Shown: piece by piece, positions 6,001 through 9,000 of the stretch
Layout: each line of letters begins with the position of its first letter
Numbering within the stretch: the stretch's first letter is position 1
DNA from: a virus
DNA length: 50,880 nt
Direction: 5' to 3' (one strand)
UHGV virus genome: UHGV-0174141
Position numbers: made by a program

Positions 6001-9000
6001 AGGGCGGTGGCAATATCCTCGATCTCGATCGCGTCTTGCTGGATGTCGAGATAATTAAAGTGTTTACCCGAAAGGGTTTGAATAAAGCTCATTATTTTCT
6101 CCATACTTTACGCCTGCACAGCGCTGTTTTTTGGGTGTAGGAATCCCTCGCCAGGTGGCGATTAATTACAGGATTACGCTTTAATAAATCCCCTCAACGA
6201 CGGGGATTTAATGGAGAGCAATCAGGCCTTGAAGTTGCCGATAAAGGTTTCTACCGGCTTGCCGTCGAACTTGCCAACCAGCAGATCACGGAACTCATTG
6301 GCGATCGCTTCTTCCAGGGCTTCCAGCTGGACGATACGCAGGACGAATACCGGATCGCTACTTTTGAGCAGGCTATTGCGAAGACTGAAACGACGTTCGC
6401 CCAGGCCCTCATAGGGTACACACTTAAACTCAAACGCTACCGGCATAACCTCTTTACTGCTGGCTTCAATACTTTGCATCAACGATTTCTTACCGCTAAA
6501 GTCACTATCTTCATGGTCGGCTTGAGTTGCCTGTTGGATAGTGACGCGGCGGACAGCTTGCGCAGCCTGGGCGATCGTCATCGTATTGCCGCCAGCATCA
6601 AAGGCCAGCAGATAATCGCTCCAGTCTTCGAGCCACTCAGCGATTTGCTTCTGATTAAGGTGATCGCCGTTGATCGCCAGTAACGCGCGGAAGGGCGCTG
6701 TTTTCTTTAGCTTGATCGAGGCGACGTTATCAGCATGACCAGGGTTGTCCAACGTGCCGATATTGAAGATAGAACGAGCCAGCATGTTATCGGCATCAAT
6801 AAAGCAACGTGCTTTTTCTTCTTCCCGGGCATAAGCGACAGAATAGCGAACGAAATCATCAATGCTGGTCGTGTCCATGGCACCGCGGAAACGGAAACGC
6901 TCAAGAGAATAGCGCTCCAGGCTTTCAACACTGGTATTTTGAGGTAGCAGGGCGGTCGGGCAGGCCAGACCGTGGATATCGTTCAGGTGATACCCGGAAA
7001 GCACGAGGTCTTTAACTTGCTGAAAAGTACCGCTGTCTAACTGAGACATAAAAATTCCTTATTAACTGATTAGCGAAGTGGTATCAGTGAATTTGTACGT
7101 GCGGTTCACTGAGCCGCTTTAAGCTTTCCGTCCACCGTGCCGGTGATACCGAAGAGTTGCCCCTGATCCTCTTGCAGGATTGTGAGCTTGCCACCTTTGT
7201 TAACCCACATTGGTGTTTCGGTGGTGTCCTCCTCCGACGCTTTGCCGCGGGGAGTTGGGGTGCTGTAGTTCAGCTTGTGCTTAATCTTGACGCGCTTCTC
7301 TTCAACAGAGTTGCCCATACGCTCAAAATCAAAGGTGAGGACAACCTTGCCTTTGTTGCCGTTGTTCAGAACGCCGAGCGCGGTGGTATTAAGAGCCGCC
7401 GCAATCTTGTTCATGAATACGCCGGCGTCCAGTTCACCCAGGAAATCGGGCACTACTGTCATGCGATCATTACTCATGGTTTTACCCTCTCGAAAGGCGG
7501 CTGCCACCGCCGGGAATTTCTCCGTACACAACACAGAAGAGCACCTGCGGTTAGGACGCCGCCCGGGTGGATTGGGTAATGAGCCCGTCGCCCGGTGATG
7601 CTCTTGTGTATTGTGTAAAAAGGGCGGTTATCCATCAGAACGTTATCCTCTTCCTCCTTTGGATAGTGGAAAACTGGATAACCGCCAAGACTACACACAG
7701 CACAGTTAACTAGGTTGTGGCGGTGGTGCCTCCACCTGCCGGGTTAAGCCATAACCGGCGACGTACACTGCCCGGAAACGCATTCATTGAACGGGGTTGG
7801 CTCGTCACGTGCGCATAGCCGCAATTACCACAACGAAGAGAGCACTGCCGGTGTCCGAATCGAACGGACCTTTTCCCTGCCCATCACCAGATATAGAACT
7901 ATCCTGGCGTCTGGAATCGAACCAGACTCTGTGCCTTGCTCGTCAATGCCCTCATCGTTGTGCGCTGTGGTGACGGGATTTGAACCCGCATAACGTCCGG
8001 CCGGCCGCATGAGATAACCTGTGTTGCGAACATTGGTTAGTGCTCAACTCCCCACATAAGGGGCGCTCTATCCATTTGAGCTACACCACAACGGTAAGAG
8101 CACTGCCGCCACCCCTTGCGGGATAACCCGTCTATCTGCCTGGCGGTAGGGCGTTTCCTGGCATCTTCAGTACTCTTTCCTGTTGTGTCCCGGACTCTTC
8201 CCGGGGGTCACACCTTTTCGCCGCGCTGGTGGGGCGCACGTCGTGCCTGAAACACTTGGCTTGCACATTCCAGTTGTCCGGATAGCGCATGGAACTTCAA
8301 GGGAACCATCCGGGCTGCTAACGCTGCATGTGCCATACAACGGTTGTGAATATTGCCGTTCACAACTGGAAGCGCACTCCTTCAGTTACAAACCGATCCC
8401 CACGACCGATGGAAGATGGAATGCGCTTTCATGTTGTTTACGATTCATCTACCCCGGTCCGGCGGCGCCACCTCGCCGGGGCAGATGCAAAGGATCGTTA
8501 CGCGATCATTCGGCTTGTTGGTATGGCCGGAAGTATCAAGTCCCGACATCGCGGATTCTGCTTCTCCGCCCCGATTTCACCCCCGCTATTGTTTAGCGCG
8601 CAAACCGAGAAAATCGCCTTCAACGCTGTCGGCTTTCGCCATGTTCGATCAGGAATCTTCGGGCGGGGCGCCGGCGACCAACCGGCACAACCCCTACAGT
8701 ATTAATCCAGGCTTACTGGACCCCCGACGCCGTGGGCTAAACGGCTGCTGTATGTCGGGTGAGTTTCTGTTGCTGGTGGTCAATCCAGCTCCGCAACCCC
8801 TCCCGAAGACACCTGTTTCAAATCAAAACTTCAAATTACGCACCAGAGGGGCTGCCGTTGAGCCGCCTGACATTTGAACTTTGATACGGTTTACTGATGG
8901 TTTGCTACGTTCTTCGCCAGTAAAGCTATTGAATGTACACAGCCCCAGAACTAAACGAGGGACGCCGCGTAAAATTACAATTCCTCCTGCTTTTGGTAGC

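What the first reader, a model, noticed from the sequence alone, without database searches (positions are those of the whole stretch)
8100..8822. ~0.7 kb GC-rich stretch with no convincing ORF, transcribed from PL between the N-like gene and the tRNA-like elements
On the minus strand, which is the direction of PL transcription, no ORF of 60 codons or more exists across ~720 nt. The plus-strand ORFs here are Pro/Arg/Ser-rich and overlap one another, as expected for accidental frames in GC-rich DNA. In lambdoid phages this PL-proximal position usually holds coding cargo. A non-coding stretch of this size is unusual and could be a large structured RNA or a decayed cargo gene.
Basis: partly seen in the sequence, partly recalled or inferred. 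Interest (0 to 1): 0.55.

Follow-up and report, generated by a model that had tools for sequence, protein, structure and literature searches.

The report
Array of structured phage RNA cassettes
The "empty" 0.7 kb is not a dead gene but four to five separate, evolutionarily conserved folded RNAs that belong to a longer, shuffled array of RNA cassettes (some mimicking parts of tRNAs) sitting at the very start of the early-left operon of many enterobacterial prophages, and nobody seems to have described or annotated them.

Summary
In 8100-8822 no minus-strand ORF reaches 60 codons. The three overlapping plus-strand ORFs have no family hits and are broken in most homologues, and substitutions show no codon periodicity.

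The stretch is neither a pseudogene nor one giant RNA. It is the first part of a ~1.3 kb array (8814-7525, minus strand) of independently folding RNA modules:
- X (165 nt, pseudoknotted), A (~205 nt), B (77-nt hairpin) and C (~155 nt);
- a framed cassette L;
- D, a tRNA-like RNA without an anticodon arm;
- E, a four-way junction with two T-arm hairpins;
- F, terminator G and cassette H, which carries an initiator-tRNA anticodon-stem-loop look-alike.

X, A, C and E show strong compensatory covariation and a G·U excess on the minus (early-left sense) strand. Modules are present or absent independently, with sharp breakpoints, in related prophages of Klebsiella, Salmonella (ST64B), E. coli, Citrobacter, Yersinia and others. 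None is in Rfam 15, and none is annotated in any record I looked at.

Function is unknown. My best reading is a processed, immediate-early array of accessory RNAs. The main rival is a cis-acting antitermination leader for these N-less lambdoid phages. The "N-like" label on the 70-aa ORF is not supported.

The parts
9079..9106 (-). Sigma-70 promoter-like site (TTGACT-16-TAATAT), the presumed PL. It lies downstream of the repressor gene 9177-9809(-) and its terminator 9151-9170(-).
   Evidence: 9 of 12 matches; the number of such sites is not above shuffles. The position is inferred from synteny with ST64B, phiNP and E. coli prophages.
8823..9035 (-). It is present in only a few relatives.
   Evidence: No Pfam or PHROG hit. 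Weak tblastn hits to hypothetical proteins of two Pseudomonas phages. Found in L104/L130, L077 and L136 only.
8651..8814 (-). Module X: ~165-nt RNA with an 18-bp closing stem, four internal helices and a probable pseudoknot.
   Evidence: CM R1 scores 164 bits on the minus strand and 25 bits on the plus strand. Found in at least 50 of the loci searched, including ST64B. 90.8% of cells paired and 20 of 37 pairs with compensatory change; slid controls 33-55%. Pseudoknot complementarity in 39 of 41 distinct sequences, with six different sequence pairs.
8440..8645 (-). Module A: ~205-nt multi-hairpin RNA. It has an invariant GGCGAAAGCC, a GCGUAAC-loop hairpin and a long 3' hairpin.
   Evidence: 98.1% paired and 11 of 40 pairs compensatory; slid controls 31-44%. 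G·U to A·C ratio 35:4. Present in phiNP, E. coli, Buttiauxella, Symbiopectobacterium and Phytobacter prophages.
8361..8438 (-). Module B: 77-nt framed hairpin (5' CACAAC..AAAGCGCAYUCC / 3' GGAGUGCGCUUCC..GUUGUG) with a variable apical part.
   Evidence: Fold z = -3.85. 36 distinct homologues. The stem is almost invariant, so covariation says little: 1 of 19 pairs compensatory. It occurs twice in L005.
8185..8342 (-). Module C: ~155-nt RNA with a conserved hairpin CGGCGUAUGGCACAUGCGUCG, a CYCACCA-loop hairpin and a GGAAGAG-loop hairpin.
   Evidence: 96.3% paired and 13 of 35 pairs compensatory; slid controls 24-48%. G·U to A·C ratio 93:3. Also found in Uetakevirus SPC32H next to tRNA-Arg, and in Stenotrophomonas and other phages.
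8087..8187 (-). Cassette L: a framed cassette (5' CACAAC-AGG-AAAGAGUACUG / 3' CGGCAGUGCUCUUACC-GUUGUG). Its 3' strand carries a boxA-like UGCUCUUAC.
   Evidence: Read directly from the sequence. The junction motif occurs twice in the window against 0 expected. 13 of 14 identity to the rrnB leader boxA region. Absent as a unit, together with D, from L104 and L130.
7965..8090 (-). Module D: tRNA-like RNA. The acceptor stem, D arm and T arm are canonical. The anticodon arm is replaced by a short hairpin plus a long extra hairpin.
   Evidence: Rfam tRNA 40 bits against a gathering score of 29. ARAGORN finds none. Compensatory changes against the Yersinia massiliensis prophage copy in the acceptor stem, T stem and extra hairpin.
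7829..7962 (-). Module E: a four-way junction. It has a ~20-bp frame stem, two T-arm-like hairpins (GGUUCGAUUCC, CCGUUCGAUUCGG) and a variable hairpin.
   Evidence: Fold z = -4.40. 94.9% paired and 10 of 34 pairs compensatory; slid controls 33-55%.
7716..7834 (-). Module F: an RNA closed by an acceptor-like stem (GUUGUGG...CCACAAC). Its 3' hairpin, GGUGG-AGGCA-CCACC, resembles the 3' part of STnc100.
   Evidence: 33 distinct homologues. The STnc100 resemblance was read. No Rfam STnc100 hit here at E up to 10.
7617..7686 (-). G: a long hairpin followed by U5, i.e. an intrinsic-terminator-like element at the end of the variable array.
   Evidence: Fold z = -5.59. Weak DicF-like hit due to the hairpin. 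Conserved in many loci.
7525..7617 (-). Cassette H: a framed cassette whose cargo, GCGACGGGCUCAUUACCCAAUCCACCCGG, contains a look-alike of the initiator tRNA anticodon stem-loop. It is the last element before the first early-left gene (start codon at 7477).
   Evidence: Inverted repeat I2. 13 of 14 identity to metZ positions 29-42, and most other loci match 14 of 14. The motif is present 100-130 nt upstream of the first gene in 73 of 131 distinct loci, 3 times elsewhere on the sense strand and never antisense. It precedes yfdP-, rdgC- or yfdR-like genes.

Best explanation
Positions 8100-8822 are the promoter-proximal part of a ~1.3 kb untranslated array of independently folding RNA cassettes on the early-left (PL-sense, minus) strand.

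Shown:
- The region is non-coding.
- X, A, C and E are conserved RNA structures on this strand.
- D is a tRNA-like RNA without an anticodon arm.
- Modules are gained, lost and recombined as units. Breakpoints fall at short conserved 'frame' sequences (CACAAC..RAGAGCAY / RUGCUCUY..GUUGUG).

Inferred:
- The array is made as the first, immediate-early PL transcript. In this window it ends at hairpin G unless RNA polymerase reads through.
- Host enzymes cut it into stable small RNAs. RNase III would cut at the ~20-bp frame and closing stems. RNase P would cut at the tRNA-like acceptor stems.
- Each cassette acts in trans as a dispensable accessory function. This would be the RNA counterpart of the variable protein genes that lambdoid phages keep just downstream of PL.

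Most speculative step: several cargos copy parts of tRNAs (two T arms, an anticodon-less tRNA, an initiator-tRNA anticodon stem-loop). At least some cassettes may therefore be decoys or competitors for proteins that bind or cut tRNAs.
For: Non-coding.

Structure and strand:
- X: 20 of 37 compensatory pairs, and 95-170 bits forward against 23-38 bits reverse. Pseudoknot.
- A: 11 of 40 compensatory pairs.
- C: 13 of 35.
- E: 10 of 34.
- G·U far exceeds A·C in all four modules.

Cassette behaviour:
- Near-identical prophages differ by whole modules with sharp ends. L081 has all of them. L104 lacks L and D. L092 lacks D and E. L073 lacks A and D.
- Any of X, A, B or C can be first after the repressor gene in other phages.
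- The frame motif RTGCTCTY occurs 100 times sense and 87 times antisense in 136 distinct gaps, against 2 and 5 in the adjacent coding DNA.

tRNA mimicry.

Transcription of the homologous gap: in ST64B, a 74-nt RNA called STnc1310 maps from inside the 3' strand of the closing stem of X to the U-tract of the terminator that follows X. Its level rises under peroxide and NO, the two conditions in which that paper saw ST64B lytic-gene transcription (PMC7067206).

Spread: 50 GenBank phage records, and at least 120 IMG/VR contigs for the frame motif and for the H motif.
Against: - There are no expression, end-mapping or processing data for this phage. The promoter call is weak.
- RNase III and RNase P cleavage is inferred only from stem length and tRNA likeness.
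- No target or partner is known for any cassette.
- The stem of B and the frames are nearly invariant. Their pairing is therefore not proven by covariation, and their sequence conservation could reflect protein or DNA-level recognition.
- Cassette H and hairpin G are almost universal and sit directly before the first gene. That looks cis-regulatory rather than accessory.
- In ST64B-type loci, X is followed at once by a terminator. That fits a cis-acting role for X better than a trans-acting one.
Confidence: 0.5

Rival explanations
1. The array is a cis-acting leader that lets RNA polymerase transcribe the early-left operon without an N protein. One or more modules, with X the prime candidate, would bind the elongating polymerase as HK022 put RNA does. 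Alternatively or additionally, the boxA-like sequences in the frames would recruit NusB/NusE as in rRNA operons. Either mechanism would suppress Rho and the intrinsic terminators (G here; the terminator after X in ST64B).
For: [quoted passage not shown]
- ST64B has no ORF between PL and its first gene. There X is the first structured element and a terminator follows it directly.
- A terminator-like hairpin G closes the array.
- The frame 3' strand at 8109-8096 matches the rrnB leader boxA region 13 of 14.
- An exact canonical boxA, GCUCUUUAACA, lies on the sense strand of the PL-proximal region in 12 related loci.
- A 1.3 kb untranslated RNA needs protection from Rho (established knowledge).
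Against: - No sequence similarity to the HK022 put region.
- No second copy downstream of PR; the CM for X finds one site in the window.
- X is absent from many related loci, and no module is universal at the first position.
- Near-identical phages differ by whole modules, so most modules are dispensable.
- The window has no canonical boxA.
- In the folded frame the boxA-like bases are paired, and their variable part co-varies with the opposite strand.
Confidence: 0.27
2. X is a riboswitch-like sensor. It would be a ligand- or factor-binding aptamer whose closing stem competes with the downstream terminator, setting early-left read-through. The other modules would be unrelated passengers.
For: - X is a ~165-nt pseudoknotted multi-helix RNA with invariant junction sequences.
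- In ST64B-type loci a terminator follows it directly.
- In those loci the 3' strand of P1 (CCCGCC) is complementary to the terminator's 5' arm (GGCGG), read.
Against: - In the window and several relatives, X is followed by module A or B, not by a terminator.
- No ligand clue comes from neighbouring genes.
- The alternative pairing was seen by eye in one sequence group only.
Confidence: 0.08
3. The framed cassettes are DNA-level elements. They would be MITE-like units with terminal inverted repeats, or recombination or inversion sites. The RNA folds would be by-products.
For: - The frames are ~20-bp inverted repeats conserved on both strands.
- Deletions end at the direct CACAAC repeats.
- L074 and L082 carry the same cargo in opposite orientation between identical frames, which is a DNA inversion.
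Against: - Helices show G·U pairs on the sense strand far more often than A·C: 35:4, 93:3, 74:19 and 21:9.
- Cargo hairpins co-vary.
- The CM for X is strongly strand-asymmetric.
- The frame motif is confined to this locus in the 50.9 kb window.
- X, A and C do not have these frames.
Confidence: 0.07
4. The stretch is a decayed protein-coding cargo gene, or it encodes small proteins.
For: Plus-strand ORFs of 125-174 aa exist.
Against: - No family hits.
- No codon periodicity, indels mostly not multiples of 3, and ORFs broken in most homologues.
- The ORFs span modules that occur independently.
- 70-90% nucleotide conservation across genera, with compensatory pair changes.
Confidence: 0.02

Closest known systems
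HK022 put RNAs (putL/putR), cis-acting antiterminator RNAs of an N-less lambdoid phage
   Same: Both are structured RNA immediately downstream of PL in a lambdoid phage without a recognisable N. In both, terminators lie downstream. The literature already suggests a put-like mechanism for a relative, phage LLS.
   Different: put is ~70 nt with two stem-loops and is present at both PL and PR (PMC9378689). Here there are modules of 77-205 nt and no similarity to the HK022 put region. There is no PR copy, and the modules are variable and dispensable.
Phage tRNA gene clusters with co-transcribed small stable RNAs (for example the T4 tRNA region with its species 1 and 2 RNAs; cited from memory)
   Same: Both are polycistronic arrays that mix tRNA-shaped and other stable structured RNAs. 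True tRNAs occasionally occupy cassette positions: SPC32H tRNA-Arg and Phytobacter 'tRNA-Ile' lie right after the frame motif.
   Different: Almost none of the units here can decode. ARAGORN finds no tRNA in the window. D lacks an anticodon arm. X, A and C are not tRNA-like at all. The location is the immediate-early left operon of temperate phages.
rRNA operon leader and spacer organisation (boxA antitermination plus RNase III processing stems around structured RNAs, with tRNAs in between)
   Same: Both have long untranslated structured RNAs bracketed by ~20-bp stems, tRNA-shaped units between them, and a UGCUCUU motif next to a G/U-rich stem strand. The match to the rrnB leader is 13 of 14.
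   Different: The boxA-like bases lie inside the stem and partly co-vary with the partner strand. No canonical boxA is present in this window. Nus-factor binding is untested.
GOLLD and ROOL, large ornate RNAs of prophages that often lie next to tRNA genes
   Same: All are prophage-borne, function-unknown, highly structured non-coding RNA adjacent to tRNA-like genes.
   Different: No Rfam match. These are several small independent modules, not one 500-800-nt RNA. The hosts are Enterobacterales.
STnc1310 (Salmonella ST64B prophage ncRNA) and STnc100/PasD (prophage sRNAs)
   Same: STnc1310 maps to the homologous gap of ST64B, directly after module X. The 3' hairpin plus closing strand of F resembles STnc100. 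STnc100 itself is present elsewhere in this window, at 22444-22641.
   Different: STnc1310 is a 74-nt terminator-proximal fragment that has no counterpart in this window. STnc100 lies in the late region, and its Rfam model does not hit the array.

Membership tests
tRNA (Rfam RF00005), for module D at 7965-8090 | Acceptor stem, D arm and T arm of the cloverleaf | tested here: met
   40 bits against a gathering score of 29. Compensatory changes in the acceptor and T stems against the Yersinia copy.
tRNA (Rfam RF00005), for module D at 7965-8090 | 5-bp anticodon stem with a 7-nt loop that presents an anticodon | tested here: not met
   A 68-nt insert occupies the place of 15 model positions. ARAGORN finds no tRNA. 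The hairpin there has a 4-5-bp stem and a 4-6-nt loop, and it differs between the two copies.
HK022-type put antiterminator RNA | Sequence or shape similarity to put (~70 nt, two stem-loops) | tested here: not met
   blastn of the array against the HK022 nun-PL-cI-cro region gives only chance 11-15-mers. The modules are 77-205 nt.
HK022-type put antiterminator RNA | Related copies downstream of both PL and PR | tested here: not met
   The CM for X finds a single site in the window. No non-coding gap follows cro.
HK022-type put antiterminator RNA | Terminator read-through that depends on the beta-prime zinc-binding domain | not testable with these tools
   Needs transcription assays.
Lambda-type N/nut antitermination | An N-family protein | tested here: not met
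   The 70-aa ORF has no Pfam or PHROG hit. Its only matches are hypothetical proteins of Pseudomonas phages.
Lambda-type N/nut antitermination | boxA followed by a boxB hairpin in the PL leader | tested here: inconclusive
   A boxA-like UGCUCUUAC lies at 8101-8093, inside a frame. There is no canonical boxA and no boxB was recognised. Only ~37 nt separate the promoter -10 from the ORF start.
Any Rfam 15 family (including GOLLD, ROOL, C4, IsrK, DicF, STnc100) for X, A, B and C | Covariance-model match at or near the gathering score | tested here: not met
   Nothing in 8100-8822 at gathering thresholds. At E up to 10, only chance-level hits well below gathering. The same holds in 18 related loci.
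Riboswitch, for X | Aptamer coupled to an expression platform (terminator or RBS) | tested here: inconclusive
   A terminator follows X in ST64B-type loci, but module A or B follows it in the window and others.
Pseudogene or decayed ORF | Residual similarity to a protein family, codon-position bias, frame-preserving indels | tested here: not met
MITE-like DNA element, for the framed cassettes B, L, E and H | Terminal inverted repeats with dispersal to unrelated sites | tested here: inconclusive
   Inverted-repeat frames are present, and one cargo inversion was seen. But the motif is confined to this locus in the window, and G·U exceeds A·C in the stems. Genome-wide dispersal was not tested.

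The most novel reading that the evidence does not exclude
N-less lambdoid prophages of Enterobacterales carry, at the immediate-early position, an RNA-only accessory locus. It would be a hypervariable array of exchangeable RNA cassettes held in conserved ~20-bp frames that bear boxA-like sequences. Its cargos would include mimics of tRNA parts (an initiator-tRNA anticodon stem-loop, T arms, an anticodon-less tRNA) and three new complex RNAs (X, A, C). These would act as decoys or inhibitors of host tRNA-directed nucleases and other defence or takeover targets. That would make it an RNA counterpart of anti-defence gene islands.
Probability: 0.15. Interest if true: 0.88.

Novelty: new variant of a known kind. 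Interest (0 to 1): 0.68.

Why it matters
These prophages sit in the best-studied bacteria: E. coli, Salmonella ST64B and Klebsiella. Yet every record I inspected leaves a 0.7-1.3 kb gap next to the repressor gene unannotated.

What the work adds:
- The gap holds several covariation-supported RNA families that are absent from Rfam. That gives concrete new RNAs to study.
- It gives candidates for the unknown early antitermination mechanism of N-less lambdoid phages.
- If the tRNA-part mimics are decoys, it would be a new class of RNA-based counter-defence.
- The frame-bounded cassette organisation may explain how non-coding modules are shuffled between phages.

Caveat: large unnamed catalogues of candidate viral structured RNAs exist (PMC10690425). 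I could not check whether any of these modules is listed there.

Tried and rejected
- Rfam at gathering and at E up to 10, on the window and on 18 loci. Only the tRNA-like D hit, plus unrelated C4, IsrK and STnc100 elsewhere.
- ARAGORN on the window found nothing.
- Pfam and PHROGs on all ORFs of the stretch found nothing.
- HK022 put region comparison showed no similarity.
- Pas sRNA preprint: PasA-D lie in the late or structural regions, not here.
- Search for mimicry of E. coli rRNA, RNase P RNA, tmRNA and initiator tRNA by blastn-short. For X, A, B and C only chance 9-11-mers came up. The meaningful hits were the initiator-tRNA anticodon stem-loop in H, the T loop in D, and the boxA region in the L frame.
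- King et al. 2011, on newly discovered antiterminator RNAs, could not be read.
- A canonical boxA was sought in the window and not found.
- MAFFT plus RNAalifold under-predicted the inner helices of X because of one-column register shifts. I replaced it with a CM-guided alignment, which leans towards the given structure.
- I ran no further search on the plus-strand ORFs, because one search already excludes coding.
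Full report
**Context.** The window is a lambdoid, ST64B-like prophage. Its closest deposited relative is Klebsiella phage Kp4866-6. Reading the minus strand, the order is:
- an S24/LexA-type repressor (9809-9177) with its terminator (9170-9151);
- a promoter-like site (9106-9079);
- a 70-aa ORF (9035-8823);
- about 1.3 kb without a credible gene (8822-7480);
- yfdP/sb37-, yfdQ- and yfdR-like genes.

A gap of 0.75-1 kb is left unannotated at the same place in ST64B, phiNP and E. coli prophages.

**Observation.** No minus-strand ORF of 60 codons or more overlaps 8100-8822; the longest is 57 aa. 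The plus-strand ORFs of 137, 125 and 174 aa overlap one another. None has a Pfam or PHROG hit. In alignments of homologues:
- variable columns fall equally on the three codon positions;
- most indels are not multiples of three;
- every candidate ORF is interrupted in most non-identical homologues.

GC is 0.54-0.60 here, against 0.41-0.47 in the immunity region.

**What it is.** blastn and nhmmer against 150 related loci show that the gap is a mosaic. The loci were fetched through the neighbouring yfdP-like protein. Pieces with sharp ends recur in different combinations in Klebsiella, Citrobacter, Salmonella, E. coli, Yersinia, Buttiauxella, Erwinia, Kosakonia, Phytobacter and other prophages. 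I call the pieces, in transcription order:

| Module | Coordinates |
|---|---|
| X | 8814-8651 |
| A | 8645-8440 |
| B | 8438-8361 |
| C | 8342-8185 |
| L | 8187-8087 |
| D | 8090-7965 |
| E | 7962-7829 |
| F | 7834-7716 |
| G | 7686-7617 |
| H | 7617-7525 |

Near-identical IMG/VR prophages differ by whole modules. L081 has all of them. L104 lacks L and D. L092 lacks D and E. L073 lacks A and D. The finding's coordinates cover X, A, B, C and most of L.

**RNA structure.** The whole 723 nt folds better than shuffles, with z = -3.16. Evidence by module:
- **X.** A covariance model built on a hand-curated structure scores 95-170 bits on the PL-sense strand and only 23-38 bits on the opposite strand. 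It finds X in at least 50 loci, ST64B among them. On that alignment 90.8% of cells pair and 20 of 37 pairs show compensatory change; slid controls give 33-55%. The alignment was fitted to the model, which favours the structure. A loop inside helix 3 is complementary to the segment just before a conserved AGGG in 39 of 41 distinct sequences, through six different sequence pairs. That indicates a pseudoknot.
- **A.** On a plain MAFFT alignment, 98.1% of cells pair and 11 of 40 pairs are compensatory; slid controls give 31-44%.
- **C.** 96.3% paired and 13 of 35 pairs compensatory; slid controls give 24-48%.
- **E.** 94.9% paired and 10 of 34 pairs compensatory.
- **B.** A stable hairpin (z = -3.85), but its stem is almost invariant, so covariation is uninformative.

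G·U pairs outnumber A·C mismatches 35:4 in A, 93:3 in C, 74:19 in X and 21:9 in E. Selection therefore acts on RNA of the minus strand. No Rfam 15 family matches any of X, A, B or C.

**tRNA-related cassettes.**
- **D** reaches the Rfam tRNA threshold. It has canonical acceptor, D and T arms that co-vary with a Yersinia prophage copy. The anticodon arm is replaced by a short irregular hairpin and a long extra hairpin. ARAGORN rejects it.
- **E** is a four-way junction with two T-arm-like hairpins.
- **H** carries CGGGCUCAUUACCC. That is 13 of 14 identical to the anticodon stem-loop of E. coli initiator tRNA (metZ), and most other loci match 14 of 14. The motif lies 100-130 nt before the first early-left gene in 73 of 131 distinct loci and almost nowhere else. 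It precedes yfdP-, rdgC- or yfdR-like genes alike.
- Real tRNAs are rare at these positions. Examples are SPC32H tRNA-Arg and a Phytobacter 'tRNA-Ile', both directly after the frame motif.

**Frames.** Cassettes B, L, E and H are closed by a conserved stem of about 20 bp: 5' CACAAC-N-RAGAGCAY and 3' RUGCUCUY-N-GUUGUG.
- The 3' motif occurs twice in the window, against 0 expected.
- RTGCTCTY occurs 100 times sense and 87 times antisense in 136 distinct gaps, against 2 and 5 in the adjacent coding DNA.
- GUUGUGG is shared with the acceptor-like stems of the following cassettes (D, F), so alternative pairings are possible.
- Deletion end points coincide with the CACAAC repeats.
- In one pair of loci the cargo between identical frames is inverted.
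- The 3' strand resembles boxA. Positions 8109-8096 match the rrnB leader boxA region 13 of 14.
- Twelve related loci carry an exact canonical boxA on the sense strand near PL. The window does not.

**Transcription evidence from a relative.** In Salmonella D23580, the ncRNA STnc1310 lies downstream of the ST64B repressor. It rises under peroxide and NO shock, the conditions in which that paper saw ST64B lytic-gene transcription (PMC7067206). Mapped onto ST64B, it starts inside the 3' strand of the closing stem of X and ends at the U-tract of an intrinsic terminator that follows X. The mapping assumes identical spacing in the two records. X followed by this terminator is common in other loci. 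In the window, X is followed by A.

**Mechanism.** I favour a processed, immediate-early array of mostly dispensable trans-acting RNAs (confidence 0.5). The reasons:
- the modules behave as exchangeable accessory units;
- they fold independently;
- their ~20-bp closing stems and tRNA-like ends are the kinds of structures that RNase III and RNase P cut (established knowledge, not tested here).

The decoy reading of the tRNA-part mimics is inference only.

The main rival is a cis-acting antitermination leader (0.27). It is supported by the reported absence of N in the relative LLS, the terminators, and the boxA signals. It is weakened by the lack of similarity to put, the absence of a PR copy, and the dispensability of each module. 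The two readings can both be partly true. G and H in particular look cis-acting.

The remaining rivals are less likely:
- riboswitch-like X, 0.08;
- DNA-level MITE-like units, 0.07;
- decayed gene, 0.02.

**Novelty.** The stretch matches 50 deposited phage genomes piecewise. It is almost always unannotated and typically lies just downstream of the repressor gene. The frame motif and the H motif each occur in at least 120 IMG/VR contigs. I found no description beyond STnc1310 and the put suggestion for LLS. Unnamed large-scale catalogues of viral structured RNAs exist and could not be checked.

Noticed in passing
window 7574-7587 (-), inside cassette H at 7525-7617: CGGGCUCAUUACCC is 13 of 14 identical to the anticodon stem-loop of E. 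coli initiator tRNA, and most related loci match 14 of 14. It sits 100-130 nt upstream of whichever gene comes first in the early-left operon.
   Followed up: partly
L074 vs L082 (IMG/VR loci), about 120-200 nt upstream of yfdP: Between identical frame sequences, the ~75-nt cargo of one locus is the reverse complement of the other. That is a DNA inversion between the inverted-repeat frames.
   Followed up: no
L073:1640-1690 (+), and L013, L022, L040, L049, L057, L065, L085, L099: An exact canonical boxA (GCUCUUUAACA; CGCUCUUUAACAA in L073) lies on the PL-sense strand in the promoter-proximal part of the gap. In L073 it directly follows a hairpin, which is the rrn-like boxB-boxA order. In L073 a 156-aa ORF in the opposite orientation is inserted between X and B.
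   Followed up: partly
window 22444-22641 (+): An STnc100 sRNA (Rfam, 99 bits) lies in the late region. Its 3' hairpin plus closing strand (ACCGGGAGGCACCCGGCACCA) closely resembles the 3' end of module F variants (for example L015). This hints that STnc100 and F share ancestry.
   Followed up: no
L001 (ST64B) 3396-3469 (-): The published Salmonella ncRNA STnc1310 maps from inside the closing stem of module X to the terminator after it. It may therefore be a processing product of a PL-X-terminator transcript.
   Followed up: partly
window 8823-9035 (-): The 70-aa ORF with an Arg-rich N-terminus has 37-41% identity to hypothetical proteins of Pseudomonas phages D14P and Haboob. It is present in only a few of the related prophages. 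L073 has an unrelated 77-aa ORF at the same place.
   Followed up: partly
L003 (Salmonella phage SPC32H, Uetakevirus) 2785-3164 (-): Modules C and E, followed by a genuine tRNA-Arg(UCU), occur in a non-lambdoid phage between the terminase-side and head genes. The cassettes therefore travel outside the PL context.
   Followed up: no
L056:1186-1264 and L058:3722-3800 (Phytobacter prophages): ARAGORN calls a 79-nt 'tRNA-Ile(AAU)' directly after the frame motif inside the gap. This is an unusual anticodon for bacteria and may be another tRNA mimic.
   Followed up: no
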